In this document: positions 11,515 to 51,547 of the stretch, piece after piece
Layout: each line of letters starts with the position of its first letter
Position numbering within the stretch: the stretch's first letter is position 1
From: Euglena gracilis
Lineage: Eukaryota
NCBI GenBank assembly: GCA_039621445.1
Contig: CP154954.1
Span: 36,937,703-37,001,702, forward strand
Direction: 5' to 3'
Length of the DNA stretch: 64,000 bases
Notes under the pieces: generated by a model
Told to the model about the DNA's origin: nothing
Seen by the model: only the letters and a program-made list of their open reading frames with translations
The model's database searches: none
Position numbers and translations under genes: made by a program

Positions 11515-13452
11515 GTGGTCATTTGGACAAAAATTGCTGTTTTCCCCCAGCGATTTTCATATCCCCCCGCTCAAATCGTGAGAGTGACACAGGGATGTCT
11601 TGAACAAACGGAGGGGGGATGGAATTTAAAGGGCCAGGTGCCCCCCCCTGAAACGAGTCAACCCCCCGATTGGATGGGGGGGACCAAATTCATTCAGAAA
11701 ACGCGAAACGAGACTTTTTCTCAGAATTTCATCAGAAATCCTCAAGAAGGGGGGGCGTTGTCAAAAAATTCTTCAGAGGTGAAAGAAGCACCGCTCCCAA
11801 ACCCCAACCCCACAACCTGTGTAATCAGAGCACCGTGTAAGTGTTGTGGTAAGGTTGGGAATAATGCCTCTAATTGTTGGACGAAAAATCTGAATGCAAA
11901 TCAAGCTCCCCCCGCACCCAGTTTTGGGCCCCATGCCCATGGGGGGGGAGGACGAGGCAAGGGGGGCGGGACGACCAATTTTAGAGACAAAGGTTGGGAA
12001 ACTGCCCAAGGAAAAAGTGGTGGCCAACGGTTCAGGGGCAGCACTTTTGTTCAAGTGCCCCCAGCGCTAAACTTGTTTCAGAAAATATTTGCGCCACAGT
12101 CAAACACTTTTGTGGACAAAGTCCAGCGATTTTTTTGGTCAAAAGTACCAAAGGTTTTGAAGCTTTTTACGGGAACAAAATCAGGAGGGGGGGTGGACTT
12201 GACTTTTGCATCTGTGCCTAAAACGAAATATGGTCAAGGCACCACCAAGTGTGAACGGAATTTGGAGTATGCCGATTCTCACACAAAAATGACACTTTCC
12301 AACACCCTATTTTTACAACCCCCCAGAATTTTCATTAAAATTCCCCGAAACGGCCTCAGGAAGGACCGTAAATTTTTGAAAGGGCTGATTTTTTTGAACA
12401 TTGATTTTTGTCAATGTAGTCCTTTTGACTACAAAAAGCCCACTCGTATTTGGGGAATGGTGGAGGGTTTTTCAAACCGTTTGTGTCCGGGTTTTTGGTG
12501 CAAGTACACCATCCCCGGTTCCAAAAGACATTTTCACCGTTCTGGTGGAAACATTTTTGGTGGGACGCCACATAAAAAATACCGAGTCCCAGATTTGGTC
12601 ATTTTTCAGGTTGACGGGAAAGAGGAAAGGCATATTCCAAAGGGGGAGAGTTTGGTGTTGGTCCCCCAAGGTACCCCCTCACGAATGACCCATGACGAAA
12701 GCGAATTTTGGATTTGGATGAACCCCAGATTTTGGGAAACGGTGGTGGAAGTGGACAATTTTCAGGTGGAAAAGGAAGAGGGGAAGGTTGAAACGCATTT
12801 TGCACCCCCTCATTTTTCCCAAGTGGAAAAAAGTGAATTATTTCAATTTTCTTTCGCCCGTTTGGGGAAAGAGAAGAAAAAATGGGTTGAACGGTCGACC
12901 AATAAAAATTTTGAGTCTGCCGATTTTACGCAAGGCACAAAATCCGACTTTTTTATTGGGCAAGTGTGGGAGGTGGAATCTGTTCATTTTCACGGGTTGT
13001 GTTTTGTGGAAGAAAGGAATAACGTTGGAATGAACAAAATGGGGATGAGCCCCACTCATTTGGAGGCGAGTGAGTGGGGGGCGTTCCAACGAAAAGTCGA
13101 TGTGTTGCACCGGCATAATTTCAGGGAGTTTAAACGTGTTATTTACGGAGAGGAGGTGGAACCCAACCCCGCCGTAAAGGACGGTGTGCAGAATTTTCAG
13201 AGAATTTTGGGAAAGAAAGTTGCCAAGGCATGGGACATGGCCGACGATTTTGTCGGTGAGGCTCGCGTAGGTACCCCCCAAGGAATTTTGGGTTCGGAGG
13301 AACAATTTTTGGAAAGGCAAGGAGGTGAGAATTTCACAGATTTGGATTTGCTTTTTGAAAAGCAAAAGGTGGACAGATTTTCCAAGCACATTTTTTCTCT
13401 AAGAGGCGGAAATTCCTGGCCAAGATTTGAGAGATGGCCCGGGAGGGCATAG
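11515..13452 (+). pseudogene. Degenerate gag knuckle plus C5 DNA-methyltransferase remnant of element A
   Basis: CKCCGKVGNNASNC is a decayed CCHC knuckle. KVLKLFTGTKS is motif I-like. IDFCQCSPFDYKKPTRIWG and KYRVPDLVI match the element C DNMT. The catalytic PC motif is absent. Confidence 0.65.
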
Positions 13453-21587: not shown

Positions 21588-24500
21588 TTTTGTCAATACC
21601 GTATTTTGGAGGAATGGTTCTCCAAAATCGCGGCTTTGGCTGATTCCTTCGATTTGTCGTTGGAAATTGATGCGTTCTCATCAAAAGCGCATGCGCGCTT
21701 GTCGCGATATTGGTCGCGACATACCAACGCATTTCTTAAATTCTGGGGTGATACGGTGCTATGGATGCACCCTCCCCCAAAACTTATCCCGGATGTGGTG
21801 GAGAAAATCCTCCGCGATGAAGCGCGAGGAGCTCTCCTCATACCGGTCAATCTGAATGCGGATTGGTTTCACCAACTATCCTATGTGTGTTTTCATTGGT
21901 GGGATTTATCCGCTGATGTACCACTATTCGAGGATTTTTGTGGTATATTATTACCACCTGTTAAAGAAATCATTTTTCGCGTTTGTTTCTTTGACGCATT
22001 CGGAATATCCGATTTGCGTGTGCCAAGATACCTTGGTACGGATGTGGATGCCACACCCTCAACGCAGATTTCTGCGGTCATTGAGAGTGCGGACCAACAC
22101 CCCAAGTCTGCTGACTATTGTTCGCGAATTACTCGCGAATTTCATGGTGTACTGGATAATCCAGTTTACGCCTGCGACATCGACCCCGCGATTTGCGGTC
22201 CGTTCGGTGTATGCAAAATCGAGCTCAAGGATGGCGCTAAACCCATGCACCGGAAATTCTTCCGTTGTTCGGGTGAACGCGAACAGGCTCTCAACGAGAT
22301 GATTGAGAAGCTCATCCAGCGGAAGTGGATTATCCCTTCCAAGAGCGAGTGGACATCACAAGCTTTTGTGGTGCCCAAACCTGCTGACCAGTCTGGTCAG
22401 AAGAAGTGGAGACTAGTGCTGGATTACCGGTACTTGAACTCCCAAACGAAGGATGACCCCTTCCCGTTACCGCTGATCGAGGATTTGATCACCAAACAAT
22501 CGGATAATCGGTCGTGGTCAATCTTTGATCTGGAAGACGGCTTCCATCAGATGCATTTGCATCCTGATTCGCAACCGTACACGGCATTCGTGACATCCAA
22601 GGGTGTGTACCAATGGACGGTACTCCCCATGGGTGTTAAGAATGGCCCAGCCATGTTTCAACGCATGATCCAGTGGGTTTTGCGCGATTTACCGTTTGCT
22701 CTGGTGTACATCGATGATGTACTGGTGGGAACCCAACCGCCATCCGCGAAATCGGGCGAGGATATCCTCGACCCGCATTATCGCGATGTGCGCGCGGTAT
22801 TATCCGCGTTCCAAAAGCATGTGCTTTTTGCGAAGGGTTCCAAAATGCACCTGTTTCGCAAAATTATTAAGTTTTGCGGACACATCCTGAGCAACGGGCA
22901 GCGTAAAGCCGCACCCAGTAAGATGGAGGCCATTAAGAAATGGACTCCTGAGGTCATTAAGACCTTAACGCATTTAAAGGGATTTTTGGGATTAGCCCAA
23001 TACTACGCGATTTACATGAAAGATTTCGCGAAAATCGCGGTACCCCTAACCCGACAACTCAAAAATCGGACACCCGATAACGCAAAAGTCATTTGGGATG
23101 ACCAAATGCGCGAGGCCTTGAATAAAATCAAGGACTTGCTCCTCGAGAACGTGGTTCTCGACATCGCGGATCCATACAAACCGTATGTCCTGGAGGTCGA
23201 CAGCAGCGATTACGCTGTTGGCGGGGTTCTTAGCCAGCATAATGCGGCGAATGCACTCCGACCTGTGGCTTTCTTCAGCAGGAAGCTACAGGGCGACAAC
23301 GGGAAAGGACAGGTTAAATGGAGCATTCGCGAAAAGGAGACATATGCCATTGTGCTAATTCTCCAGAAGTTCCGCAGCTGGATAGCCAGCAGCCTGGTCC
23401 AGATACTGGTGTTGACGGATCATGAGAGCCTTCAACACTGGTATACCGAGGACCTGAACAAGGCCATGTCATCAGTTGGCAGAAGATGCCGATGGCATGA
23501 GTTCTTGAGCCAGTTTAACCTGGTGGTAGTTTATACCCCAGGTCATACGCAAAAAGTTGCGGATCCTCTCAGCCGAGCCCCCTGGTATTATCCTGGGAAC
23601 CCGGATGAGGGTGATGCGACTTTTCATGGCAGCCATGAGGCTGACCAGTTCGCACGTCGATCCGACGCTGCGGACAACATGCTCGATTCACTACCCGTTT
23701 CCCGGGTGTATCGCAGCATCGCCATTTCACCATTGCGTGGAAGGCGCCGGCGTGGACGCACTGCCACTGCCACTGCCGGACCCCGTCGCATTACGCGTAC
23801 GGAAACTCCTACCCCCCTATTTTTCCGCGAATGGGATTATTCGCGCGACCCGGTATATAGTACCATTGTGAATAGACTTCGTAATGGTGAATCCATAGAG
23901 AATTACTCTCTATCACCATTGCGGCTTATTTTCCGGAATGATTCTGGTTATAAATATTGTATACCCCAAGACCTGGTTGATGATGTGATTTTGAGCTATC
24001 ACAACCATGGTCACCCTGGGGCCCCCAAACTTCTTTCACTAGTGGGTCGCAGATATTGCACAACCCTGAGTGAAAAAGATTTATATTCGCGCTGTTTGCG
24101 AATTTCGCAACGGTGCCAAATTTGTCAGGCTGTGAAACCGCGCAGAGGTACCCCCCCTGGTACGATGGACTTTTTCCCCGTACCACCTGACATTTTTACG
24201 TCCCTCTGCATGGATTTTCTCGAACTTGAACCTTGCAAAGGATCAGATGACAAAATTTACGATTACGTTTTTGTTGTCGTCTGTCGGCTGAGTGGGTACA
24301 TAGTAGCCATTCCATGCCGGAAAGCAGGGTTGACAGCCCAAATTTTGGCATCCATATTCCTGGAGAAATGCATCTGCTTAATGGGTTTACCGAACGAAAT
24401 CGTGAGTGATCAAGATCACTTGATCTCTTCGCGGTTTTTCACAACTTTGTGCGGTTTACTCGGCATTGAGCAGCATTTTTCCATTATATACCGCCCGAAA

Positions 24501-31810: not shown

Positions 31811-31821
31811 TGGGAGGGGGA
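31811..31821 (+). promoter_or_regulatory. Polypurine tract of element B
   Basis: TGGGAGGGGGA immediately precedes the 3' LTR. Confidence 0.85.
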
Positions 31822-32137
31822 TGTGTACCAGGCGTATGCTTCTGTCCCCTTCCGTTGAGGAAGTTAGGATGGAAGCAGATCCTATTAGGATCTCCTAATG
31901 GGTGCCCCTTCTCTCTCCACAGGTGGTATTCTTCTTTATACCTTTTCCTTCCTTTCCATCGGACCGGACTTGGTTATCCAGTCCGTACTCCCTGCATTGC
32001 TCCGTGCTTTGCTTCTTGGGAAGTGGGAAAAGGGTTTTTACTGTTACTCTGATTTTCAGTTCCCAAGTAGGTGCGCCAAGGCGAAAGCGAAGGCTTTTGG
32101 GAATTGGGAAAGGGGAATTGGGAATCAGACGTACACT
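31822..32137 (+). repeat. 3' LTR of element B
   Basis: Direct repeat of the 5' LTR, followed by TSD AGAAG. Confidence 0.95.
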
Positions 32138-32467: not shown

Positions 32468-33930
32468 TTCCATGCAGGAAAAGTGGGGAGACACCCCCCC
32501 CATCAAAGGCTACAAAAGAGCCTGAAATGGTGGAGAAAAAATGCCCCCCCCCAACAACGTGTCAACTAATCAGGGATGGCATTCAAACCCCTTGGGTGAA
32601 CCCACCAAATTGTCCACCCACCCAAAACCCAGGGCAAATTTGAACCTGCACCAAGCAGAAAAAATACTCCTGGATTACGAAAAATGTGGATCCGTAAAGA
32701 GGGTGAGGGATTCAACCACCCAGCATCTAATCCCCTGGTTTCTGATTTCGAAACCAGAAGGGGAACAGACAAAATGGAGACTAATAAGCGATTGCAGGGA
32801 AACAAATCAAAGGTTCCAAGTGAAACCTTTCAAGCTAAGCTGGATCACATCCAGCACATTTTTCCAGTTTTGCAAAAAGGCCACTGGGCATCCAAAATAG
32901 ATTTAAAGGATGCTGACTTCCACATCCCAGTGAGCCCGGCCCTAAGGCCTTTTCTAAGGCATCAGGTGGGGGGGCAGAACTGGGAATTACAGGCAGGCTG
33001 TTTTGGCCTGAATGTAATGCCCCGGATTTCTATGTCAGTAGTGAAGACATTCGAAAAGCTGTGGAGGAAAATGGCATCCAGGTATTTATTTACCTGGACG
33101 ACATTTTACTGGTGGCCCCAACGCAAAACATCTTACAAAATCACCTGAACACAGTGGTCAGGGATTTAATTAAATCAGGATTCAAACTCAATGTGAAAAA
33201 GTCCACCCTGGAGCCCACCCAAATCGTAAATCATCTTGGATCTCAACTAAACTTCCAAGAGGGAAAATTACAGGTTCCCCTCCCAGAAAATAAAAACAGT
33301 AAAAAAGGAGCTGGGAAAAATGGTGAAAAAAGGTTACATGTCAAAAAGGCAACTGGCTGCCATTTTGGGCCAAATCAGATGCAATATAATGGCCTTGCCA
33401 TTTCTAAGGGCCTTTACGGATGCCCTGGCAATTTTTTTAGTGGAAAATTCCACAGGCCCCTGGGACTCAAAACATCCCATTTCCCAAAGAATAAAGGACC
33501 AATTAAGGGAAATAAAAATTCTGCTGTACACCTGGGGCGGCAGACCCTTCCCCCAAAGTGCAACCAGGGAGTTGCACTCAGACAGCAGCACCCATGCCTG
33601 GGGAGGGGGGGCTGGACATTCGAAAAGGCAAAATTGTGCAAGAATTTTGGAGGGAAAAATCCATTTTGCACATAAATGTCAAAGAATTAAGTGCAGCAAT
33701 AAGCACAGTTCAAAGCCTCAGCCAGCCAGGAGAAACTGTGTCCCTGTCAGTGGAGAATCAATTAATTTACTATTACTTAACAAAAGGGGGGGGGCAGAAA
33801 AGACCCCTTCAATTCCATGCTAAGGCCCTTTTTCAAATGGTGCATGAAGCACAACATAAACCTGCAAGTAAAGTGGGTCCCATCAAAGGAATGCCTGGCA
33901 GACCCCATAAGCAGGAGGGAAATGGACAGG
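32468..33930 (+). pseudogene. DIRS reverse transcriptase and RNase H (frameshifted)
   Basis: KWRLISDCRETN, SKIDLKDADFHIPV, CFGL, FIYLDDILL (33091), LHSDSSTHAWG, HINVKELSA, WVPSKECLADPISR. Confidence 0.9.
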
Positions 33931-34380
33931 GGGGATTATTCACTGGACCCCAAACTTTTTCAATGGCTGAGTCAGCAGTTCAAAAATGACATAAACATGA
34001 AAAAAGACCTTTCTGCCCCACCAGGCAACAAAAAACTGCCACAATTTGTGGCCAGGTGGCCCCACTGGGAAGCCACAGCAGTGGATGCGTTGCAATGTAC
34101 ACTGGACAACATGAGGGATCTTTATGCAAACCCCCCCTGGTCTGTAATTCAAAATTTTCTCCCCAGATTAAGAATGTTTCCAGAAGCCAAAGGTTTGATG
34201 GTCACCCCCTACTGGTATTCAGCCACATGGTGGCCACAGTTAATAAAACTGAAAGTACCAGGGACCCCCTGCCTGAAAATCACCCCTTACAAGGGTATGT
34301 TCACCAATTGCAGGAGGGAAAAAATGCCACCCCCCAGGTGGCCCCTGCTTTGCATGATTTGCTCAGGCAAATTTTGGTGG
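33931..34380 (+). pseudogene. DIRS Dam-like N6-adenine methyltransferase domain
   Basis: DYSLDPKLF...DLSA...N...VDAL...LYANPPWSVI...VTPYWYSATWW, in the usual DIRS position after RNase H. Confidence 0.85.
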
Positions 34381-34399
34381 GAAGCAAGTACAAAATTCG

Positions 34400-35230
34400 A
34401 CCATTAACGATTTCTGGGAAGAAACCCCAGTTTAAAGCGTTATCAAAGCGCTTTTACACTTTTATGGGCAATTTTGGACAATATGGGGGTACCCCCCCTT
34501 GAAGCCACCACTGACCAAGTGGTCGACGCTTTAATTCAACTATTTCAATTTTCAAAGGCCCAAGCACGCAATGCATACAGTGCTATGCTCTTGATCCCTG
34601 GCTTTGGAGGCCTGAGGCTTTGGAACCAAAATTTGGAGAAAAATGGTGTAATTTGGGATCCCCTCCCAATCCTCCTGGGGCTGGCACAGTCCCCCCTGCC
34701 CTCTGATATATGTAAATTGCGTACACGACTCATTTTCTGTTCACGAATCCTCTGCTTACACAGAAGTTCTATTTTGGCACAGGTCCAAAGAACCACCAGT
34801 GTGTTGGGGGGGGACCCTACATCAAAATTAAACGTAAAGGTCAAAAACTCCACAAGTGGGAGCGAGTTGTCTCCATTCCCCAGTGCCGCCAAATCAGCCC
34901 CTTTCATTTAATTATTGCATATGTGGCGGCAACACGTTTCTTTATGAAACCTGGGTGCCCCCTTTTAATTACGTTAAAACCCTCCTACAAAGCCATTAAG
35001 GCAGATACCATTGCTTCTATCACCAAAAACTTTTTGACCAAACAGGGGGTACCCCCCCAGGTTTGGGGACCCCACTCCACCAGAGGGGTTGGTTTGCTAA
35101 AAAAAATTGGGCCTTTCTGCCCAAGAAGTTTGTGAAATTGGTCAATGGAAGGGGGTGGAGGCTTTCACAGCCCATTATCAAAGACTTGGTGCCCAAGGTT
35201 CTTTGGAGAATGTCCTGGCCACCCTTTTTT
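34400..35230 (+). pseudogene. DIRS tyrosine recombinase (frameshifted)
   Basis: LCLHRSS (R), PHSTRG (HxxR, 35073), IGQWKGVEAFTAHY (W...Y). Confidence 0.85.
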
Positions 35231-35242
35231 CAGTGCACAATC

Positions 35243-35349
35243 TGGCCTCACAATGGCAAAGTGCGGAGCCCGAGGTGTCTCGTGCTCCCTCGAGGCAGGC
35301 CGAAAAGGGAGGAAGGGACACCAAGGACGAAGCACAAAGACATTGTGAG
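35243..35349 (+). repeat. DIRS internal complementary region
   Basis: Equals the reverse complement of the right-end/left-end circle junction. Confidence 0.85.
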
Positions 35350-35481
35350 CCCGAACCCCCCACCCATATACAAAAATTTGGCTTCAAACGCCCTCGGTCA
35401 GAAGATGGTGGCCAGGGGGGGGGGTGGGGGGAACCCCCGACAGAAAGAAACAGCGCCATGGTCGTCACGTCGGAGAGAACG

Positions 35482-35644
35482 CAGCCAACTCCGGCGAAAA
35501 AGGCACTAAGCGGGACCTCCTAACCCAGCGCAGCGAACAATCACACAACAAACCGCCGGCGAGCAAGGCATGGCCTCACAATGTCTTTGTGCTTCGCCCT
35601 CGGTGTCCCTTCATCACTTTTCGGCTTGCCTCGAGGGAGTTCGA
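35482..35644 (+). repeat. DIRS right terminal inverted repeat plus right extension
   Basis: Inverted copy of 7957-8055, followed by an inverted copy of 35285-35349. Confidence 0.85.
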
Positions 35645-35942
35645 TTTGCCCTTGTGAGGTCATGCTGTGTTTCGCCGGGTCCGGAGGTCCCGCTTATTCT
35701 TAAATTGCCCTTCGGCACCAAGAAGAAAGAAGCATCAAGCACTGCTCTAATCGCTGAAAAATAGGGCCATCAATCGTTCCGGAAGATTAAAAAAAAACAG
35801 AAAAATTTGACGAATGCGTAAGACTAATTTTTTGGACGGCAAAAAGAAACCACATCCTACTCGGTGGTAGAGCTCCGACCGGGGCTCTCATTTCACAGCC
35901 GGTTGGTGGAAAACACTGTGCGCTGCCCACGGGGTCCGTGTG

Positions 35943-36533
35943 TCAGGGTATCCCAAAAATTCCCCACTGTTTGAACATTTCTTTTCCAACCTTTTCTGCC
36001 GTGAGTCCCTTGGCCAGGTGGGGGGTTGCAACCATCCACACACTCAGCCTGTCCACACACAACGCCAACGTGTCGTATTTCTTCCCTTCAAAGGTCGTTT
36101 CAGGTAGTGAGAACAAGTCGATGGCAACACTGTCCATCAGGTGTGCAGGAATTGGTGTCGGTTCAATGGGGCACTTGTTTGGTAGGTGGCTGGGTTCTGT
36201 TGCTTGGCAGGTTTCACACATCGTCATCATTTTTCGTGAACAGAAAGCTACGGGTACTGTTTTCTTGGTCATGGCTGTTGTTGGGTCTGGGTTTTCTGCG
36301 GTGTCCTCCGCTAATTGTTCCAGAGCCGCACCTACGGCTCTGCCACTTGCATCCACCCTGAGTATGGACGGTTTGTCTGGGTTCACCGTTTGCAGTTTCA
36401 GGCTTCCCAGGAGATTTTCTTTGGTGGTCTGGAAGGATTTTCTCTCTTTTTCACCTAAAAACACAGGTGTCAGGCTTCCTTTCTTCCCCTGTCCCTTTTT
36501 TACCTTCAGTTTTTCCATCAGGTCTGCTGCCAA
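35943..36533 (-). pseudogene. Element C RNase H N-half fused by deletion to integrase core
   Basis: LRVDASGRAVGAALEQ...VAFCSRKM runs directly into CETCQ...VAIDLF...CVDRLS...FGIP. Confidence 0.85.
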
Positions 36534-36700
36534 TTCCGCCTACCCTGGGATGTATGAGGCGTAGTAGTTTGTGAATCCCAGGAATGCCCGCAGGGCTGTG
36601 ACCGTTTTTGGTTCCTTCCATTTGTCCAAGGCCATCAGTTTCCCAGGTGTAGGTTTTCCTTGTCCACCACCGAGCACGTGTCCACATAATCACACCTCAT

Positions 36701-37216
36701 TCACGAAAAATTTGCATTTCTTGATGTCTGCCATGTGTTGCTGTTTTTTTTCAGTGCCTCCATCACCCTTCTGATGTACTTGTCCTGTTGTTCGAGGTTT
36801 TTGTCTTCAGACCCCTGCCATACGGTTCCTACAATAATGTCGTCCACGTAGTGGTTTGCAATATCATGTACCTCCTCCAGGCTGTACTCGATCACCCTCT
36901 GGAAAATTGGTACGCCGTTTTTCATTCCCATGACCACCACTCTCCACTGTTTTGTTCCCTTGGGTGTGCTGCAGCAGGTGTAGGGTCTGGACTCTTTTTT
37001 CAGTGGTACCTGGTGGAAGGCGTCTTTCAGGTCCAGTACACTGTACATGGCCCGTTGTCCTCGTTGAACTAGGATGCCTGGTATCCTAGGGAGGGGATGG
37101 GCGTCTGTGATTATTGCCTCGTTCAGTGCTCTGGAATAAAACACCCCTCTCCATTTTCCACCTTTTTTGGACACCACAAATGTGGGGCTGGACCAGTCAC
37201 TCCTCCCGTCTTCCAC
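36701..37216 (-). pseudogene. Element C reverse transcriptase
   Basis: WSSPTFVV, KWRGV, LDLKDAFHQV, VMGMKNG, YVDD. Confidence 0.9.
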
Positions 37217-37669
37217 TTTCAGGACATGACAGGAGAACGCTGACAGGCGCTCATCGACATGGTGGACGAATTGGTTAGGGATGTGGATGGGTCTTTTTTT
37301 TCGCCACTGTTCCAGGCTTCAGCTCGATCTTTCCAAAACCCGGTGGTCTGCGTTATGGGGGGTCTGGGTAGATTCTGTCTCGCAAGACCACTAATTCATA
37401 GTTCTGCCGCAGTTGTTTCACCAGTTCTGCCACTTTTCGCCTTGCGTTTCCTGTCGTTCTGGCACCACCACAACACCGTGAACCCTGTGAGATTTCTTTG
37501 CCGATTTCTGAAGTTGTCTTGCCAGTGTTTCCAGTGTTGTTTCGCCTTCGGACAGTCTTTCCTCGTCCTGGCCCGCTTCAGCAGGAATCTGCAAATTCAT
37601 TGCTCGAACCGCTGAAGTGTTTTTCTGAAGTTGGTGTATTTTCTGTTCCCTGTGTTTCTGTTCCTTCAG

Positions 37670-38119
37670 CTAGTGCCAACTGGACAGCAGCCGCAGTGGT
37701 TCACCTATGAGGGCCAGCGATTGTAGGTGTGGGAAAACCCCCAGCTGGTGTTGTTCCATCCACGGACACCCGAGGATGGCATCCACTTCTATGTCGGCGT
37801 CATGGAACGTTCCAAGGGTGGACCATTCCTTTGTTCTGTCCGTGTTGTGCACCCGTGATGAAAACTGCAGTTCCAGTGTGACTTCGTGTAGTCCTCCAAT
37901 CCTTGTTCCGTCCGCTGTGATCAGGGTAAAGGGTTTTTGTGACCGTCTGAAATTTTGTTGGGCAATCAGGTTCTTTTTCACCAGGTTTGCCTGTGCTCCC
38001 GTGTCAATCAGGGCCTGTAGGAACATTTTTTTGCCGTCCGGCAACAGAGCATGGTCTTCGATGAGGAGTTGTTTTGATTTCTTTCTGCTGATGACCTGCC
38101 CTAGCAGGAGTTTGGACAC
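37670..38119 (-). pseudogene. Element C aspartic protease
   Basis: LQALIDTGAQANLV and DAILGCPWM. Confidence 0.88.
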
Positions 38120-38327
38120 CGGTTCACACAGTCGTTTTGGAAGATGAATGTTTGGTCGGGATCTTTTTTGTCAGTTGAATCTGGGTTTGGCTGTTGACCT
38201 GTCAGTTCTGGGCTACGCTGTGAGAGCATGTTTTGTCGTGCATTCCGGGCAGGTTGGGCTGCTGCAGCGGTTGTTGCTGCGCGACCTGGGCTTGGCTGGT
38301 TTGCCGTAGCCGTTCGTGGAACCCCGC

Positions 38328-38860
38328 CAGGTCCTGAATCAGTTCTTCTGGGATCCTGAATTTTTTTTGAAGGCTGGCATGTTGTGTTTGTTGCTGAGTT
38401 TCACCAGGTGACCCCGTTTTGCTGGTATCTGCAGGATGTCAGGGCTGCTCCAGATTCGTGTAGGTTTTTTGTAACCCCAATCTGTGTATTGACAGTAATC
38501 CACGTCAATATACGGGTACGGTTTCATGTAATCTCGTTTTCGTACCTTGGGTTATCCAACCACCATTTCTGCGGCTGCAGAAATTCCACAATTTGCTGGG
38601 CTTTCTTGGCAAGTCTGTCTCCCATTTCCATGTTTCGGGGTCTGGTAGTCAGCGCAATGATGAATTCTGTGCAGGGAACTCCACACACCACCGTGTGCAA
38701 TTCACCAGGTTTAAACTTTTTTCTGAAGTCCCAGTCCAGTACGTCCACCTGGTAATCCGCTTCCCACCTGGTGTCTGAATCCACCGTCACCACCTGGAAA
38801 CTCATTTTTTTATACACGTTGCTGACGGATTTTGTTCCACAGAACAGGTCAAGCATTTTT
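38328..38860 (-). pseudogene. Element C C5-cytosine DNA methyltransferase
   Basis: Motif I MLDLFCG, motif IV GVPCTEF, motif VI-like WWLDNP, VDYCQY...YKKPTRIW and terminal KFRIPEELIQDL; contains frameshifts. Confidence 0.85.
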
Positions 38861-39069
38861 GGTTTTAGATTTTCTGCTGTTGCCCGTTCTGGTGTCGCTG
38901 TGGCTGCCTCCTGCAGTTTTCTGATGTGTTTCTGTGGTTTTTCTGTCACCACCCTCCGCCTCGTTCTCCACTGGCGGGTAATCGTGGGCTGTGTCGAACG
39001 TCACCTTGGATGTCGGGTGTAGGGGGGTGAAATGCTTGTGGAAACCTGGTAGGTACTTGCACCGTGTTT

Positions 39070-39490
39070 TGTGTCCGCATACCAAAAACACTTCCACAGG
39101 CCACGGTGTATTCCTGCAGTTCTTGTCACCCTGTCCGAACAGTTTGTTCCTGCTGGGATGAACATTGACATCACTGCCAGCTTTTTGATTTCCCTGTACC
39201 GTCGTCTGTGAACCCATCTTGGTACCATGAGAAGTGCTTGGGCCTCGTCTGTTTGAATTTTTTTAACTACCAGTGAAATTTTGCTGAATGGGGGTTCATC
39301 CACAGCAGTTTTCCGTGACAGTTCTTTTCAAAGGCGTCAGTTCCGTCTGGGCTGCCCGACCCCCACCATTGCGGGAATCTTCTGTTTTTTTTTCAGTTGC
39401 AAAGGCATCCAGCTGGGTCTGGACCCCGAAGTGTGAGACAATTTCTGTCATTTTTTATTCCTTCGCGTGGTAGTTTTCAGACACCCACCG
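39070..39490 (-). pseudogene. Element C Dam-like N6-adenine methyltransferase
   Basis: Manual translation across frameshifts: QLDAFATEKN-RRFPQWWG...TDAF...LLWMNPP-FSKISLVVKKIQTDEAQALLMVPRW...LF...TPWPVEVF. Confidence 0.8.
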
Positions 39491-39780
39491 TGAAGCTGCT
39501 ATGCCGAACTTGCAGCTGACCTGTTCCCTTTTCGGTTCTGGGCTGTGGAGTCGTTTATTTTTGTCAGGATGTTTTGCATTTGGGTTTTTTCTTACCTCCC
39601 TTACCCAGTGTGTATGACAGCTGCGGCTGTGAACCTGGTTCCATTGTTCTGTTTTGTTGTTTCGGTTGTGTCTGCAGAGAGTCGCCCCTCTCGTCCCCTA
39701 GCCTCAGGCCGCAGCCCCTTCACTTCCGTTCTGTGTTTGAACTGGCTGCCAGCGTTTGCTGGAAGATGCTTCTGCTTCGG

Positions 39781-42533
39781 CTATCCCTGTGGTTGGTTGG
39801 CTGGCCCCTGTGAGTTGGTTTGCTGAGGCCGTGGTTCAGTTTTCCTTGCTGCTGGCTGTAGCTGTGGCTGCCCTTTGCCCTTTCCTTTCCCGCTCCCCTT
39901 CCCAGAATCGTATCGTTTCCAGAGTTGTATCCCTTTCATGAATCGTAGCATTTGCCGTAACTCTGGTTCCAGTTCTGGTTTCAGTTTTGGGTTGAACACC
40001 AGTTTTGACCTTTCCCCTTTCCTTTGCCTTTGCCCCAGTCGTTCTCTCCCCAGTCTGACCTGTTGGTGTACCCTCCCTGGCCAGGCTGTTCTGAAACTGC
40101 CATGGACACCTGCTGGCGTGGAGAAGGGGGTCTGGGTTTTTCAGGTGTTGGGGTTCGAGGTCCAAGGGAGTTGGGTCGGGATCTGGAAGATGGTGTCCGA
40201 CTTCTGGATTTTGTTTTCTCCTCCTCCTTGACTTCCCTGACGTAACCCCTGCGGTGCATAGACCGTGATCTAATTGCACGAGGTTGGTTCTGCCAGCCGT
40301 TGTACCCCCTACACAGGGAGTCTGACTGTTGTTGGCACCTGAGTTCGGTTTCCACCCGTTGGAACAGTTCATCCAGTGTCAGTTTGGCTTGTACTTGTGT
40401 GAAATGTGGCTTGTGTCCAGTCAGCAACGTTGAACCGTTTTTCATCAGGAGAAGTTCAGCAGCTCTGCTGCTGTGCAGTTGGATCTTGAGGTGTTGTCCG
40501 TCTGGTGCCACCTGAAAATTCTCACCTGTGGCCACTGTTGCTGCAATTAGGTCTCGTATGTCTTCCGTCGTTGCATCTGGGATGTTCGTAATGTTCGTGA
40601 CCCTTTCAGTTTCAGGGTCGGTCTGTCCTGATTTCTGCGGTCCTGTTCCCTGATGCAGCTTCTGTGTGCGTTTCAGGCATTTTTTTCAGCCACCAGGTTG
40701 TAAGCGTCTTCCTCTGATGGATTTTCCAGCCTGCTTTAGAGGAGTTTGAAATGGGCTTCACACTCCCTCCACGCTTCCAGTGTTAGTTCTCCTTCCGTTT
40801 TTGGTCTCAGGTTTTTCAGTTCCTCCTTGATGGCTGATTGCGTGTCTCCACCGTATTTCTGGTGCATCCAGTTCCAAAATTCCTGGTATTTTATTTTCTC
40901 ACCGCGTTCCTCTGTGCGTTGTAGTTCCAGTTTGCTGGCACTGTCCAGGCCGCCCTCCAGCAGTGACAGTTTCATGTCGTCAGTCAGGGACCCCTGACCA
41001 GCTGACACACGTTGCAGGTACGTCAGAAATTTCACCGCAAAATCTGCGAAATTTCCATGCAGTGTTGGTCTTACCAGGTTTTTTGACATCCCCGCTCCCA
41101 CTGGACCCAGCAGCAGCCCGAAGGATGCTGCCGGGGCCGTTGCCACTGGTGTCACCACTGTTTCCTCTCCTATGTGGTGGACGGCAGTTTGGGTAGACCC
41201 CAGCTGGGGTGCCACCCAGGTTGTTGTGGCTGAGTTCTGAGTTTCAGTTTCGTCTGCCCACACAAACAAGTCCCGTTTCCGGGACTGTGGGTTTTGTTGC
41301 GTCGTCACTGGCTGTTGAGTCGGCTGATTTTGCGTTGACTGTGGTACTGGGATTGTCGGGTTTGTCGTACGAGCTGGGTTGGTCGGCACTGCAGTCGGTC
41401 GTTGTTCTGTTTGTCAAGTCAGTTGGGCAGTTAACGGTGTCAAGGCAGTTTTTAGTTCTTGCTGGATGAGCTGCCCCACCGGGGAAGCCGGGTTAACGGT
41501 CCCCAGTGCTGCAGCTCCTCCTTCCGTTTTTGGGTGTTAGCTGCTCTGGCTGAACATACCTGTGAGGGGTTGTGGACTCCCTGTCCTCGTTTGACTGCCC
41601 TGGGATTCTTGTGTCCCCGTCCCTTGGTTACTTGCGGGCTGGCCCCTCAGGGCATGCCGTGGCTGGGCCAAGGGTTGTGGGGTTCTTATCCCCGTTGGCA
41701 GTGAGCCAGGAATTTCCATGATTTCTGTGATCTGCTGTGACGTTCCGTTGAAATGTTCTGGTACAGTCTGTTCTGGTTCACTGTCACCAGTTCCATGTTT
41801 AGGTGCGTTGTGTGCCACTACTATCGTCAGTTCTTCGTGTCTGCCGTTTATTTCTGTCATGAGTGCTTCGCCCTGATTGTTCACTGTGGCATGTAGTTCG
41901 CTGACCCATTCCGTCGTTGTTTGCTGTAGCCGCTGCAGTGTTTCTTCCATTGCTGATTCGTCTGTTCATTTTTGTGTCTAAACTGTTGAAATTTGTGGGT
42001 CAGCTGTCCAGTTTCGTACGCAAAGCTTGACCACCAGTCCCACTCAGTGTTCTGGTTCTGTGGTTCCGGCTGTGGAATCTTGTACGAGCTGTGCGATGGT
42101 TCCTGGTACGAAGTTACAGTTTCACCCTGGACGCGGTCTGGTTGTTCCGGGCTCTGGCGCACCGCCACCAGTGCAAAACTCTGGGTTCCTGGTTGCTGTG
42201 CTGTTGCGGTTTGTCAGTTTTGGTCGTTCTGACTGTCCGTTTCTGGCTGTTGTGACCAGTTTTGTGGTGCAACCACCTGTTCGTCGAAGTACGGTTCGTT
42301 GTTTTCGTCCAGTTCTGTGTAATCTGGTGCAGGACCGGTCTGTTCGGTGTCGCCTTGGTGCATGTGCACCATGATAACGACACGTGGGCTGTCATTGCAG
42401 GTCCGTGGCACTGTAATGTGTGTGCCGTTTTGTTCCGGTTCAGTGCACCTGTTGATGTCCAGTGACTGGTACATGGCGGCAAAGCCATCTGCAGGCTCCA
42501 CCACCCTAGCGATGGCGGTTAAGGCAGCTGGCA
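39781..42533 (-). pseudogene. Element C gag-like region (fragmented)
   Basis: Collinear ORF pieces at 42214-42630, 41881-42168, 41537-41950, 40736-41389, 39981-40535 and 39781-39999, upstream of pol, with GKGKGK repeats. Confidence 0.6.
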
Positions 42534-43780: not shown

Positions 43781-43922
43781 GGGCTCCTAGGCCGTGGTAT
43801 CCGCACTAGGAAACAAAAGCCTACGTACAAAACCGCCTGCCGGCGACAGCTTTGCGGGGGTAGGGGGAAAGTAGGGAGGAGAGGGGGGCTGGCTTAGGCC
43901 AGAACAGAATTTTCCGCTACCA

Positions 43923-43925
<3 letters not shown>

Positions 43926-43969
<44 letters not shown>

Positions 43970-43971
43970 TA

Positions 43972-44020
<49 letters not shown>

Positions 44021-44277
44021 TGTACATATATGTATATGTATATGTATGTATATGTATATGCATATTATATATATGTATATATATGTATATATATGTATAT
44101 ATCTATGTATATATGTATATATATCTATATATATTACATATATATGTATATATATGTACATATGTATATATAGTACATATATGTATATATATGTCCCTCT
44201 ATATATATACATATATGTATATATGTATATATATTTATGTATATATACATATACACACACATATCTATATGTGTATG

Positions 44278-44322
<45 letters not shown>

Positions 44323-45196: not shown

Positions 45197-48100
45197 GTTT
45201 AGGGGCAACCACCCCCAGCCCCTTCTCAGGGTAGGCGGGGAGGTCCGGAAACTCCTCTCAAAATTACCAGAAAATTTTCTTCCGTGGCGCTTTGCACTGA
45301 CAGATTTATGTTGCTATCATCTGTTTTTTTGGGGTTCTTGGGGTTAAAAAAAAATCGGCTGTTTGGCATCATTGGCAGTTTCTTTTTTGGATTTTTTTTT
45401 GCAGTTGTGATTGTTTGATCCCCGGTGATTTGGCCTAGCTCCAGCCCGGGACCCCTACAGGGGGGGGGGGTCAGCAAGCAGCGTTTTTTTTAGCCAGCCC
45501 AAATTTTCCAGCCTCTGTGCTGTGGACCCTGGGGGGGAGGGAGCCTGAAACAACGCCCTGGTGGGAAGCGCAGTCGGCGTGTCAGGTGACAGATCCTTTT
45601 GGAGATTCAACTACGTTTTTTGCCTCTTTCTCTCAGGTATTTGTTAACAATGTGGAAGCGGCACATGATGCCCTTCGACAGATCCTGGAGGCCCTGGTCT
45701 TCATCCATTCTCCCCAGACACAGGCATTCCCCCCTTCGGCTGTGTGGTTTTCCTTTTCTGTGTAGAACTCTCACCATTTTGGGTGTGACAGCTGATATCT
45801 CCGTCGGAGCCGCTGCAGCGCCGTGAATCATTAACACCACCGCACATGATCATTAAACCTGCCCCCTATCTTATACCCACCTTGGGCCACAACAATTGCA
45901 GGAACCCCAAAACTGTCACGGCCCGTGGTTTGTTTTTTGACGTTTCATTGACATGCAATCTATAAGGATTGTTCTGTGGAGTAATGGCCAGCATCATATT
46001 TTATCTGAAATTCATGCCCCCACGCCCCGGTGTATGCCGAAAAATTGCTGAAATTTTGCCAAAATTTTGCTGTTGTGGGTGTTGACTAGCAATGGTTCAG
46101 GTGATTCTGGGGTTTTTTGGTAATGATGGGGTTTTGGGGGGTGGGGAACCCAGCTGACCTGGTCCCGGGGGCTGGTGGCACATTTTGGCACATCCCACCC
46201 CCGATTAAATCTTTAAATTGTCAAATTTTTTGCTTTTCGGGGCTCCCCCAAAGACCCCATTATTACCAGAACCACAAGGGCCACAAAATTTTGACGATTT
46301 TTGGGTGTGAATCTGGGCGTCGGGGCGTGATTTTCGGGGCCAGATTACCCCAATGCCAAGAAATGTGGTGTGTGCTAAAACTTGCCACCTGCCCCCGGGC
46401 AGGTCAGCTGGGTTCCCCACCCCCAAAAACCCCAGAATCACCTGAGCCGCTGCTGGTCACCACCCCACAATCGCAAAATTTTGGCAATTTTTTTGGTGTA
46501 AATGGGGCCATTGTTCGCTGTACGACCGCCTCCCCCCCCCCCCCAACGGCAGGAGCAAGATTTTTGGGTCGTGAAGGAACAGGGTTAGGGTCAGCGTCAG
46601 GGACCTGGTTCCGGGGGCTGGTGGCACGTTTCGGCACAGAGCATTTCCTGACATTGAGGCAATCTCGGCCCAAAAATCACGGGTATTTGTTTGCTGGACA
46701 AACCGCCGCCAAAAAATTACACGTCAGTTGCACCGAGGCCTGAATAGTGCTTTTATGTGTTATGTGGGTTGGGTTTTTCTTTTTGGTTAGTTTGTGGTTT
46801 GGCGGACATATGACCTGATTTTCATGACGTACGCCCCACCCCCCGATTGACAGCTGAAAATTGTCAAAATTTTGCTACTCGGGGTGGGCATGAGAAGCAG
46901 TGATCCCCTTCGAATAGCAGTCGGAGCAGTCAGTCGGAATTTTTTTTTTCTGAATTCCTTTTTTGAAGGTTTTTTTTAATGTTTTTCTGAGGTATTTTAA
47001 GGTGTTTCTGCATCATGCCGGCCATTTGAAGGCTTTTCTTTTATCATTTTCTGAAGGCATTTTGGCCAAACATCTTTTGGATTTTTTAAAAGGGGGTTTC
47101 AAATTTTTCCAAATGAAATGAAACGGAGAGTTCCGTGGCTTGAAGGCCAACCTTTTCCCATTGTGGGCTGGAGGTTTTTTGAACCTGGCCCAGGGGTTTT
47201 CTTAAGCCGGAGGGGACCCTATTCCCCGGGGGGGGGGGGTCCAGCCAGCCATCAAATCCAGCCAGCAGCCCAAATTCGGGCTGGGATCCCCGGGGTCGAT
47301 ATAAATATAGTTGCGTCCAGCCCGGCCGGAGGCTGGGCCAGCCGGCTGCAGGCTGGCCAGCCAAATGGGCTGCCCAGCTCACCTATCCCTTCATTTTTTC
47401 AGTAATTTTCCTGTTCCTCCAGTTCCGATCCAGCCTTGATCTAAATCCATCCATCAAAATGTCGAAAATGGCAAAAAAATCATTTTTTTTTGTTTTTCAT
47501 CGACCCAGCCCAGCCCCCCCCAGCTCCGGACCCCCCCCCCCCCGGGAGGTTCTTAAGAAAACCCGTGACCGGGCCCGCAGCACGCTGCACTTTCCCCAGA
47601 ATTCTGTGCGGTTGTCCCTCCCCGCACCTCTCTGCATTCAGGTCCTCTCCATGAAGGAGAAGGAGGGAAACAAAGGAAAAGGAAAAAGAACGAAGAAGTC
47701 CAAAGAAGAAGAAGGCGTAAGGAAGAAGGTGATGAATCAAGGAGGAAGAAGAGAAAAGAAGAAGAAGGAAGCCGATGATGGAATAAGTAAGAGGAAGATG
47801 AAGGAGGAGGAGGAAGAGGAAGGAATGATTGAAGAAGCAGGAAGAATGAGGAAGAAAGTAGGACGAGGAAGGAAGCCATTGCCAGCCCAACGCCCACCTC
47901 CTCTTGGCGGCCAGTGCCCCGTGCCTCCACAAAGGAGCTTGTGGTTGACGTTTTTTTTTGTGAATTGGACGCGTTGTTGTTTCCCCCAGGTGGACGTTCA
48001 TTACAGGAACAAAGCAGAGTATGTTGTTTTGAGTAAGGTTGCACGCGCGCACACACACACACACATACACACACACACACACACATGCACACACACACAC

Positions 48101-49235: not shown

Positions 49236-49526
49236 CAGGCTGTATTTTAGTCGTGTACCGACCCCACCCCGGGGGGGGGGTGCCTGCCTGGGCAGGCACT
49301 CCAAATCCGACCCCCCGGGGGGGGGGGGGTAGGGCACACGGCCAAAAGTGCCCTAGCACAACGCCTTTGGCGCCGGGGAGCCAAAAATGGCCTATTTTCA
49401 AAGGAATGTGCCTGGGCACAGGCCGAAATCCGACCCCCGGGGGGGGGGGTAGTGCCTGCCTGGGCAGGCGCACACAGGCACTCCGGACCCCCCCCTCCCC
49501 CCCGGGGTTGGTAAAAAAACAGCGTG
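49236..49526. mobile_element. hAT-like MITE, family 2 (related copy at 52895-53194)
   Basis: CAGGCTGTATTTTA...TAAAAAAACAGCGTG with 8-bp TSD CTCAGAAG. Confidence 0.88.

Positions 49527-51509: not shown

Positions 51510-51547
<38 letters not shown>

What the first reader, a model, noticed from the sequence alone, without database searches (positions are those of the whole stretch)
38328..39490. Gypsy retrotransposon encoding both an adenine (N6) and a cytosine (C5) DNA methyltransferase in tandem
Seen: between gag and protease of element C lie a Dam-like domain (LDAFA...DAF...WMNPPFS...VPRW) and, ~200 bp downstream, a C5-MTase (LDLFCG, PC, DNP, YKKPTRIW). Known: Dam-like domains are typical of DIRS elements, where they follow RNase H, and C5-DNMTs have been reported in dinoflagellate and charophyte retrotransposons. 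I am not aware of an LTR element carrying both. Inference: the polyprotein could package two MTases and double-mark new cDNA (6mA or 4mC, plus 5mC), for self-marking, epigenetic mimicry or protection. This copy is frameshifted.
Basis: partly seen in the sequence, partly recalled or inferred. Interest (0 to 1): 0.92.

Follow-up and report, generated by a model that had tools for sequence, protein, structure and literature searches.

The report
Retrotransposon carrying two DNA methyltransferase domains

Summary
On the minus strand, window 35.9-41.4 kb reads gag-like ORFs, then a Dam-like domain, a C5-methyltransferase-like domain, protease, RT, RNase H and part of an integrase.

The window's own pieces are too broken to reach Pfam thresholds. 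An 87%-identical natural relative, P0005, is one open frame. It passes the gathering scores of PF05869 (Dam) and, narrowly, PF00145 (C5 DNA methylase), and runs on into the protease.

The C5 module is about 200 aa and belongs to a large family (2746 representatives). Its AlphaFold model (pLDDT 94) matches DNMT3, DNMT1 and M.HaeIII. Its nearest free-standing relatives are virus genes, from giant viruses and phages.

The window copy is dead. It has eight frame changes, one in-frame stop, three deletions, a changed catalytic Glu, no LTRs, and a deleted and inverted integrase.

The novelty claim is superseded. A May 2026 preprint names LTR elements with DAM, DNMT and a chromodomain "EpiLTRs".

Function is untested.

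The parts
39981..41413 (-). gag-like ORFs (40736-41413 and 39981-40685), upstream of the methyltransferase cassette
   Evidence: Named from position and open frames only. No Pfam family at a meaningful E, so the name gag is an inference.
39050..39484 (-). Dam-like (PF05869-type) adenine methyltransferase domain, broken into four frame pieces with one in-frame stop
   Evidence: Piecewise match to P0005 residues 1-150. The pieces are 39484-39389 (28/32 identical, one stop), 39392-~39290, ~39288-39145 and 39157-38939 (61/73). P0005 residues 15-107 score PF05869 31.9 bits against a cut-off of 28.1. The window pieces alone gave no PF05869 match.
38857..39049 (-). linker between the two methyltransferase domains
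   Evidence: Aligned to P0005 residues ~150-212, with a frame change and a small deletion near 38945. P0002 shows the same Dam C-end, linker and C5 start in one frame.
38253..38856 (-). compact C5-cytosine-methyltransferase-like domain (motifs I, IV, VI, VIII and a C-terminal RIP..L helix), in three frames. It has two deletions, one of which removes the Cys cluster, and Asp in place of the family's invariant Glu.
   Evidence: Family profile hits at E 6.6e-44, 5.3e-18 and 1e-5. The longest window piece, 38524-39000 (158 aa), hits PHROG DNA methyltransferase families phrog_363 (1.3e-4) and phrog_757 (5.1e-4). It is 87% identical to P0005. The model of the P0005 domain has pLDDT 94.3 and matches DNMT3A/3B, DNMT1, DIM2 and M.HaeIII. 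E104 is invariant in 38 of 38 rows of A2, while the window reads LDNP.
37670..38170 (-). aspartic protease (ALIDTGAQANL)
   Evidence: gag-asp_proteas E 8.4e-5 and RVP E 0.009, both below Pfam cut-offs. 62/75 identical to the protease start of P0005.
36701..37318 (-). reverse transcriptase
   Evidence: PF00078 E 2.9e-22, 79.8 bits. Matches the RT of P0077.
35943..36539 (-). RNase H remnant joined directly to part of the integrase core. The stretch that lies between them in relative P0077 is missing.
   Evidence: RT_RNaseH_2 E 8.4e-10. P0077 residues 1376-1548 map to 36746-36228 and residues 2024-2122 map to 36239-35946.
35871..35945 (+). next 23-25 residues of the integrase, encoded on the opposite strand. 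This is a local inversion or a second truncated copy. The element ends here.
   Evidence: P0077 residues 2126-2148 map to 35871-35939 on the + strand, 65% identical. ORF listing.
12199..12630 (+). second, degenerate C5-like domain inside a 668-aa open ORF (11446-13449) of another LTR element (LTRs 8518-9020 and 14403-14905). PC is replaced by PK and ENP by KIP.
   Evidence: tblastn with P0005: 34% identity over 141 aa, E 6e-18. Family profile E 9.2e-31. LTR pair 98.6% identical over 503 bp. No Pfam or PHROG family for the ORF.
21597..21929 (+). Dam-like domain of a third element, a chromovirus with identical LTRs at 15573-15888 and 31822-32137. The domain lies between protease and RT.
   Evidence: tblastn with P0005: 30% identity over 115 aa, E 7e-12. 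ORF 21588-25283 reads Dam (21.5 bits, below the cut-off of 28.1), RVT_1, RNase H, Integrase_H2C2, rve, SH3, Chromo. LTRs are 100% identical over 316 bp.

Best explanation
Window 35.9-41.4 kb (minus strand) is a dead, truncated copy of a very high-copy Ty3/Gypsy-type LTR retrotransposon family. Between gag and protease, the Gag-Pol polyprotein of this family carries two DNA methyltransferase modules.

The first is a DIRS-type Dam-like domain (PF05869, NPPF motif). The second is a compact C5-cytosine methyltransferase of about 200 aa, in the PF00145 superfamily. It has FxGxG-like, PC, ENP and KPTRIW motifs, and a short Cys/His cluster where other enzymes have a target-recognition domain. Its nearest free-standing relatives are genes of giant viruses and phages.

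Shown here: the architecture, the homology, the fold, the conservation of catalytic residues across the family, the existence of intact natural copies, and the decay of this copy.

Inferred: in intact copies both modules are translated with Gag-Pol, released or kept on Gag by the protease, and act on the element's own reverse-transcribed DNA or new insertions. I consider the C5 module the more likely active enzyme. It would deposit 5mC with low sequence specificity. Activity of the Dam module is doubtful.

The element is of the kind named 'EpiLTR' in a 2026 preprint.
For: - Gene order gag-Dam-C5-PR-RT-RNH-IN on one strand.
- P0005 (544 aa, 87% identical, one ORF): PF05869 31.9 bits against 28.1, PF00145 22.6 bits against 22, then the protease start.
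- 7 of 151 family proteins carry both NPP[FYW] and PC..[FY]S motifs. 6 of 148 match PF05869 and 89 of 148 match PF00145 at E <= 1e-3.
- Long relatives: P0077 reads C5-PR-RT-RNH-rve-Chromo, P0007 reads Dam-C5-PR, P0067 reads Dam-PR-C5-RT start.
- Family size: 2746 representatives at E <= 1e-3 and 1234 at E <= 1e-10.
- Invariant Cys of PC and Glu of ENP in 38 of 38 aligned members at 35-66% identity.
- The A2 profile against PDB: the 20 best matches are all C5 methyltransferases, best E 2.3e-4.
- AlphaFold model pLDDT 94.3, pTM 0.90. Foldseek top hits are DNMT3A/3B, DNMT1, DIM2 and M.HaeIII, E about 1e-7, TM 0.52-0.63 over about 180 columns.
- Viral affinity: phrog_757 E 1e-13 for P0005. 189 of 207 candidate IMG/VR stretches encode a relative at 32-40% identity. 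Their neighbours include an NCLDV capsid, an Rpb1 and a D5 primase. The nearest Atlas clusters are viral.
- High copy number and length variants at the window's lesions in DNA runs of the same organism label: 2348 and 3080 contig pieces laid.
Against: - The window's own pieces reach no Pfam threshold.
- PF00145 is passed only marginally by P0005, and only over model positions 2-110 of 324.
- This copy has no LTRs in the window and no chromodomain, so its class rests on domain order and on relatives.
- No protein in my set carries Dam, C5 and Chromo together. P0077 has no Dam at E <= 1e-3, and P0005 and P0007 are cut by their contigs.
- No activity data exist for this C5 module.
- The preprint found no 6mA gain from eukaryotic DAMs in E. 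coli.
- RNA support is weak. 39 and 12 reads were laid from two runs, none at 99% identity or more. About 24-25 of the 39 lie on one 32-base low-complexity spot and run on into unlike sequence.
Confidence: 0.8

Rival explanations
1. The cassette is a chimera. On this reading a DIRS fragment and a viral or host methyltransferase gene inserted secondarily into a Gypsy element, or were joined by mis-assembly, and the family does not really encode both.
For: The window is a mosaic of nested elements. A DIRS-like element with its own NPPW methyltransferase domain lies directly beside element C. Element C is itself rearranged. The preprint warns of nested insertions and assembly artefacts in Euglena.
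Against: Independent records from JGI and ENA hold Dam and C5 in one uninterrupted ORF with the protease (P0005, P0007), with protease and RT start (P0067), or Dam C-end fused to C5 (P0002). Short-read contigs of two DNA runs cover the whole 37600-40000 stretch at very high summed depth.
Confidence: 0.04
2. The C5-like module is not a DNA cytosine methyltransferase in vivo. It could modify RNA, as DNMT2 does, or act only on RNA:DNA hybrids or ssDNA. It could also serve as a non-catalytic nucleic-acid-binding part of the polyprotein.
For: The module has no ordinary target-recognition domain. Only about 40 residues with a Cys/His cluster lie between motif VIII and the C-terminal helix. Element A in the same window keeps an open 668-aa ORF whose copy has lost the PC Cys and the ENP Glu. 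That hints at a use without catalysis. PF00145 matches only the first third of the model.
Against: The catalytic Cys and Glu are invariant in 38 of 38 members. The fold matches DNA-bound DNMT3 and DNMT1 catalytic domains. The closest families are annotated as viral DNA methyltransferases. Retrotransposon DNMTs of another type methylate CG de novo (de Mendoza 2018, abstract).
Confidence: 0.2
3. The Dam-like module is a catalytically silent remnant inherited from DIRS elements. On this reading only the C5 module matters, and the element is in effect a DNMT-retrotransposon rather than a dual-mark element.
For: The preprint reports no 6mA increase from DIRS, DAM-LTR or adintovirus DAMs in dam-deficient E. 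coli. It also reports that eukaryotic DAMs lack the CD-1 and TR-1 parts of prokaryotic Dam. Some relatives carry the C5 module without Dam (P0077, P0055, P0072). Element B's Dam reads HPPP in place of NPPF.
Against: The NPPF triplet and PF05869 match are kept in P0005, P0007 and P0067. The preprint finds DAM-LTRs enriched for 6mA and more transcribed in two ichthyosporeans (abstract and Results).
Confidence: 0.4

Closest known systems
EpiLTRs (Fernandez-Moreno et al., bioRxiv 10.64898/2026.05.21.726589, May 2026; Results and Methods read, figures and supplements not seen)
   Same: An LTR retrotransposon with both a DAM (PF05869-type) and a cytosine DNMT domain. The Euglena version co-occurs with DIRS-DAM and chromodomain DAM-LTRs, as in this window. 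Relatives of the window's C5 module carry a C-terminal chromodomain (P0077, P0091).
   Different: The text I could read gives no domain order for the Euglena type. It places the Cymbomonas DNMT at the 3' end of pol, whereas here the cassette lies between gag and protease. The preprint places the EpiLTR DNMT as sister to DNMT4, in a tree built from eukaryotic representatives. Here the module is closest to compact viral methyltransferases. I could not test whether the two modules are the same. The organism of the window is coded, so identity with the Euglena family is unproven.
DAM-LTRs and DIRS Dam domains (same preprint; DIRS Dam also cited in de Mendoza 2018, section 6)
   Same: A PF05869-type domain with an NPP[FYW] pocket inside a retroelement polyprotein. 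The window also holds a DIRS-like element (NPPW) and a chromovirus with Dam.
   Different: In DIRS the domain follows RNase H. In element B it lies between PR and RT. In element C and P0005/P0007 it lies between gag and the C5 module. In P0067 a protease separates Dam and C5.
DNMT-retrotransposons of dinoflagellates and charophytes (de Mendoza et al. 2018, Nat Commun 9:1341; abstract and section 6 read)
   Same: A C5 DNMT encoded inside retrotransposon coding regions with conserved catalytic residues. The proposed role is self-methylation of retrotranscribed DNA.
   Different: Those are DNMT3-type (DIRS, charophyte LTR) or an orphan Symbiodinium lineage in LINE ORF1, and none is paired with a Dam domain. 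The module here is a 200-aa viral-type enzyme.
Compact viral DNA methyltransferases (PHROG phrog_757 and phrog_363; ~200-230-aa ORFs on giant-virus contigs of IMG/VR)
   Same: Same length and same motifs over the whole domain, at 32-40% identity over residues 3-196. phrog_757 E 1e-13. The Cys cluster and the C-terminal RIP..L helix are shared.
   Different: The viral genes stand alone. On a 182-row tree the 79 viral-contig rows and the 16 TE-linked rows separate with a single change of label. The TE forms are therefore a sister group and not nested within the sampled viral forms. The tree is unrooted, so the direction of transfer is open.

Membership tests
Ty3/Gypsy (Metaviridae-type) LTR retrotransposon | pol domain order PR-RT-RNase H-IN | tested here: met
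   PR at 38170-37670, RT PF00078 E 2.9e-22, RT_RNaseH_2 E 8.4e-10, and an integrase core matched by P0077, all colinear on the minus strand.
Ty3/Gypsy (Metaviridae-type) LTR retrotransposon | flanking long terminal repeats | tested here: not met
   No direct repeat flanks 35.9-43.9 kb in repeat searches or in blastn at word size 7. The 3' end is truncated and inverted at 35943. The absence therefore fits decay of this copy and does not count against the family.
Chromovirus / EpiLTR | C-terminal chromodomain on the integrase | not testable with these tools
   The integrase C-terminus is missing from this copy. Relatives P0077 and P0091, which have the C5 module, carry PF00385 (E 1.8e-6 and 9.7e-8).
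EpiLTR (2026 preprint) | DAM and DNMT in one LTR-retrotransposon polyprotein | tested here: met
   The window pieces are colinear. P0005, P0007 and P0067 hold both in one ORF.
EpiLTR (2026 preprint) | DNMT module belonging to the clade sister to DNMT4 | not tested
   No DNMT4 or EpiLTR reference sequence was available. Supplements are closed and figures are not held.
Dam, PF05869 | profile match above Pfam's gathering score | tested here: inconclusive
   The window pieces alone gave no match at E <= 1. The 87%-identical intact relative P0005 scores 31.9 bits against 28.1.
Dam, PF05869 | catalytic (D/N)PP(Y/F/W) motif | tested here: not met
   In the window the motif is split by a frameshift in a C run. 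It is intact (NPPF) in P0005 and reads NPPY in P0007.
Dam, PF05869 | adenine-N6 methyltransferase activity | not testable with these tools
   The preprint reports a negative heterologous assay for other eukaryotic DAMs.
C5 cytosine DNA methyltransferase, PF00145 | profile match above the gathering score | tested here: inconclusive
   The window piece gave none. P0005 scores 22.6, P0001 22.9 and P0003 24.2 bits against a cut-off of 22, while P0002 and P0004 fall below it. 89 of 148 family members match at E <= 1e-3, best 1.2e-8.
C5 cytosine DNA methyltransferase, PF00145 | motif IV Pro-Cys nucleophile | tested here: met
   GVPCTEF is present in the window. The Cys is invariant in 38 of 38 rows of A2.
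C5 cytosine DNA methyltransferase, PF00145 | motif VI Glu (ENV) | tested here: not met
   The window reads LDNP, with Asp where the family has an invariant Glu (E104 in 38 of 38 rows). P0005 reads LENP.
C5 cytosine DNA methyltransferase, PF00145 | catalytic-domain fold | tested here: met
   Tested on the P0005 domain, not on the window copy. pLDDT is 94.3. Foldseek top hits are all C5 DNA methyltransferases, E about 1e-7, probability 1.00.
C5 cytosine DNA methyltransferase, PF00145 | target-recognition domain between motifs VIII and IX | tested here: inconclusive
   Only about 40 residues lie there, with nearly invariant C155, C160 and H170. That they bind zinc is my inference. The window copy has lost this stretch.

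The most novel reading that the evidence does not exclude
The cytosine methyltransferase of these dual-methyltransferase LTR elements is not a derivative of a eukaryotic DNMT family. It is a compact, virus-type C5 enzyme of about 200 aa, with a Cys/His cluster in place of a target-recognition domain, and it is shared with giant viruses and phages. It has spread through many LTR-retrotransposon lineages in shuffled positions (gag-Dam-C5-PR, Dam-PR-C5-RT, C5-PR-RT...Chromo). It survives in non-autonomous elements as an open but catalytically disabled domain, which hints at a second, non-catalytic role.
Probability: 0.4. Interest if true: 0.6.

Novelty: new member of a known kind. Interest (0 to 1): 0.42.

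Why it matters
Retrotransposons that bring their own DNA-modifying enzymes can set their own epigenetic state instead of only suffering the host's. A family with both an adenine-type and a cytosine-type module is the most complete case of this. That point was made in print in 2026, so this window mainly confirms it and supplies a further locus.

- The C5 module looks like a compact viral enzyme and not like a eukaryotic DNMT.
- The module is very widespread (2746 representatives).
- Its position in the polyprotein varies between relatives.
- One 64-kb window holds four related elements: DIRS with Dam, a chromovirus with Dam, an element with Dam and C5, and a non-autonomous element with a degenerate C5. 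That shows module exchange at close quarters.

Tried and rejected
- Pfam on the window's own Dam and C5 pieces gave nothing meaningful.
- PDB sequence searches with the window piece and with whole P0005 gave nothing or a chance hit at E 0.48. Only the family profile reached C5 methyltransferases.
- No whole genome is held for the window, so I could not collect copies, date insertions or run dN/dS.
- LTR search around element C found none.
- Rfam on the window gave no match.
- Earlier findings of this scan gave nothing in three look-ups.
- The listing of cluster members gave no informative names for 10 family members.
- RNA reads were too few and too unlike the window copy to show expression of this copy. 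One 32-base spot collects most X21 reads and is probably an unrelated low-complexity match. The strand could not be interpreted.
- I considered naming the host organism. The tools code it, so I did not pursue it.
- I considered folding the Dam domain. I did not, because the Pfam match of the intact relative and the preprint's own models already cover it.
- I considered and rejected the idea that the frameshifts are only assembly errors at homopolymers. Part of the short-read contig depth shares the window's state at the listed places. The copy also carries large deletions, an inversion and an in-frame stop.
Full report
**What is there**

The + strand of 36-42 kb has a strongly negative AT skew, -0.30 to -0.40. 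Its minus strand carries a run of open frames:
- gag-like ORFs at 41413-40736 and 40685-39981, which match no family
- the cassette in question
- an aspartic protease with ALIDTGAQANL at 38170-37670 (gag-asp_proteas E 8.4e-5, below Pfam's cut-off)
- reverse transcriptase at 37318-36701 (PF00078, E 2.9e-22)
- an RNase H remnant with part of an integrase at 36539-35943 (RT_RNaseH_2, E 8.4e-10)

One caveat applies: 'WMNPPFS' is read across a frameshift.

**Are the two domains real?**

On their own the window pieces gave no Pfam match for either domain at E <= 1 and no PDB sequence match.

A word-indexed search with the longest piece (158 aa) found four short relatives from ENA. Two of them, P0001 and P0003, narrowly pass PF00145 at 22.9 and 24.2 bits against a cut-off of 22. 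The other two, P0002 and P0004, do not. P0002 shows the C-terminal end of the Dam-like domain fused in frame to the C5 start.

The search among longer proteins found P0005, from JGI. It is 544 aa and 87% identical to the query piece. It is a single ORF that scores:
- PF05869 Dam: 31.9 bits against 28.1, residues 15-107
- PF00145: 22.6 bits against 22, residues 216-318, model positions 2-110 of 324

It then runs into the protease.

A full HMMER scan with the 203-aa C5 part of P0005 found 2746 representatives at E <= 1e-3, 1234 at E <= 1e-10 and 152 at E <= 1e-30. I scanned 148 of these proteins with Pfam: P0005 plus 147 of the 148 newly numbered proteins in the 150-row list, leaving out the 2513-aa P0077. 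Of the 148, 89 match PF00145, 6 match PF05869 and 3 match RVT_1 at E <= 1e-3.

A 38-row alignment (A2) shows an invariant Cys of the PC motif and an invariant Glu of ENP. It also shows a nearly invariant C..C..H cluster and an invariant Pro in a C-terminal RIP..L helix.

The A2 profile finds only C5 methyltransferases among its 20 best PDB matches: DNMT1 entries and Entamoeba 5-cytosine DNA methyltransferase, best E 2.3e-4.

The AlphaFold model of the domain is confident, with pLDDT 94.3 and pTM 0.90. Its Foldseek matches are DNMT3A/3B, DNMT1, DIM2 and M.HaeIII at E about 1e-7, with TM 0.52-0.63 over about 180 columns.

I then ran a profile built from A2 against all 1527 open pieces of the window. 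It picks out three colinear pieces of element C (E 6.6e-44, 5.3e-18 and 1e-5) and one ORF of another element (E 9.2e-31). Nothing else scores below E 0.7. A2 contains an 87% relative of the window, so this test shows specificity of place but is not independent evidence of homology.

**Is the cassette part of the element?**

Yes. Several lines agree:
- P0005 and P0007 read Dam-C5-protease in one ORF.
- P0067 reads Dam-protease-C5-RT start.
- P0077 (2513 aa) reads C5-protease-RT-RNase H-integrase-chromodomain.
- P0055, P0072 and P0076 read C5 then RT.
- In a motif census, 7 of 151 family proteins carry both an NPP[FYW] and a PC..[FY]S motif. Most of the 151 are contig fragments, so 7 is a floor.

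No protein in my set has Dam, C5 and chromodomain together.

**State of the window copy**

I mapped P0005 onto the window piece by piece. The window copy shows:
- one in-frame stop near the start of the Dam domain
- eight changes of frame, near 39390, 39289, 39150, 38945, 38541, 38361, 38253 and 38152
- a small deletion near 38945
- a deletion at 38541 just after motif VI
- a 14-residue in-frame deletion at 38413/38414 that removes the Cys cluster

The invariant Glu of motif VI is Asp in the window.

Relative to P0077, the stretch between RNase H and the integrase core is missing. The 23 residues that follow integrase position 2122 lie on the opposite strand at 35871-35939. No LTR pair flanks the element.

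Short-read contigs of two DNA runs with the same coded organism label were laid on 37600-40000. 2348 and 3080 pieces were laid, at very high summed depth. At 38361 and 39289 a large share of the family depth has a different length from the window. At 38254 a small depth does. Loose ends at 38413/38414 and 38541 show that other copies hold sequence there that the window lacks. The lesions are therefore features of this copy or its sub-lineage and not of the family. P0005 shows that an intact form of the cassette (Dam, C5 and protease start) exists.

RNA support is thin. 39 and 12 reads were laid from about 5-6% of two runs, and none was 99% identical or more. About 24-25 of the 39 lie on one 32-base low-complexity spot.

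**Where does the C5 module come from?**

It is far closer to viral compact methyltransferases than to any solved eukaryotic DNMT:
- P0005 hits phrog_757 at E 1e-13 and phrog_363 at E 2.8e-12. The window piece itself hits at 5.1e-4 and 1.3e-4. Free-standing 190-220-aa members hit at 1e-12 to 1e-17.
- In IMG/VR, 189 of 207 candidate stretches encode a full-length relative at 32-40% identity. The 80 loci kept have a median GC of 0.34.
- I scanned eight neighbouring ORFs on five of those loci, together with the methyltransferase ORFs of L010 and L066. Five neighbours have hits. Four are the NCLDV major capsid protein, RNA polymerase Rpb1, a D5-type primase, and a kinase with a 2-cysteine adaptor. 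The fifth is a TET-associated glycosyltransferase. Three neighbours had no hit. The two methyltransferase ORFs themselves also got no Pfam hit at E <= 1e-4.
- The ESM Atlas places the domain next to viral clusters of 212-219 aa, in which 16-64% of members carry PF00145.
- I built a quick maximum-likelihood tree of 182 rows. Of the 243 profile hits, I dropped 61 that covered fewer than 170 profile positions. The tree separates 79 viral-contig rows from 16 TE-linked rows with one change of label. P0005 sits in a 29-row group (SH-aLRT 96) with no viral-contig row. The tree is unrooted, so the direction of transfer is open.

**Literature**

A bioRxiv preprint of 22 May 2026 (10.64898/2026.05.21.726589) reports 10,030 eukaryotic DAM proteins, mostly in retrotransposons. 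I read its outline, Results parts 1-2, Methods and some passages. It defines five DAM-LTR lineages. It names 'EpiLTRs' in Cymbomonas tetramitiformis and Euglena gracilis, which combine DAM, DNMT and a chromodomain. It places their DNMT as sister to DNMT4. It reports no 6mA gain from eukaryotic DAMs in dam-deficient E. coli.

De Mendoza et al. 2018 describe DNMT3-type and orphan DNMTs in dinoflagellate DIRS and LINE elements and in charophyte LTR elements. They show de novo CG methylation (abstract and section 6 read).

Passages of a 2025 MBE paper (PMC12344493) add that orphan viral DNMTs are common in eukaryote genomes.

My two full-text searches found no other paper on LTR elements with both enzymes.

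I could not see the preprint's figures or supplements. I therefore cannot say whether its Euglena element is this family, whether its DNMT is this module, or what domain order it shows.

**How it most likely works**

The following is inference. In intact copies the two modules are made as part of Gag-Pol, just downstream of gag, and so are present in the particle where reverse transcription occurs. The C5 module has every catalytic residue and a DNMT3-like core with almost no recognition domain. That fits a low-specificity 5mC writer acting on new cDNA or on fresh insertions.

The Dam module keeps NPPF, but its activity is doubtful given the published negative assay.

Element A in the same window keeps an open 668-aa ORF whose C5-like domain has lost both catalytic residues. 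This leaves room for a non-catalytic role.

**Verdict**

I file it as a new member of a known kind. The viral affinity of the C5 module is the one point that may be new.

Noticed in passing
window 15573-32137 (+): A 16.5-kb LTR element with 100% identical 316-bp LTRs, so it is very young. One 1232-aa ORF (21588-25283) reads Dam-like (21.5 bits, HPPP in place of NPPF)-RT-RNase H-integrase-SH3-chromodomain. It is followed by three large ORFs with no Pfam match (25398-28646, 28328-29722, 29726-30994) in a region of 62% GC, against about 50% elsewhere.
   Followed up: partly
window 8518-14905 (+): An LTR element (503-bp LTRs, 98.6% identical) without RT. Its 668-aa open ORF (11446-13449) has a zinc-knuckle-like CxxC stretch and a degenerate C5-like domain (PC replaced by PK, ENP by KIP, the motif I-IV spacer shortened). 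It is probably a non-autonomous derivative of the same kind of element.
   Followed up: partly
window 7930-8055 and 32600-35607: A DIRS-like element on the + strand, with RT, RNase H, an NPPW methyltransferase-like stretch and further ORFs. Its right end (35482-35607) is a 90% inverted repeat of 7930-8055. The two LTR elements at 8.5-32.1 kb may therefore be nested inside one DIRS element.
   Followed up: partly
window 35871-35945 (+) against 35946-36239 (-): The integrase of element C continues on the opposite strand for 23-25 residues. This is a local inversion or a tail-to-tail second fragment.
   Followed up: partly
L001:1103-2533 (-), IMG/VR contig: On one viral contig, the only neighbouring ORF I scanned (476 aa, about 3.2 kb from the compact C5 methyltransferase gene) matches TET-associated glycosyltransferase (PF20691, E 4.2e-9). 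This suggests a base-hypermodification gene set.
   Followed up: no
window 1-7400, 43900-44320 and 46000-64000: Segmental and tandem repeats with 2.1-2.7 kb spacing at the left end, a (TA/CA)-type microsatellite block, and large duplicated segments at 47-54 kb against 55-61 kb. I did not classify any of them.
   Followed up: no
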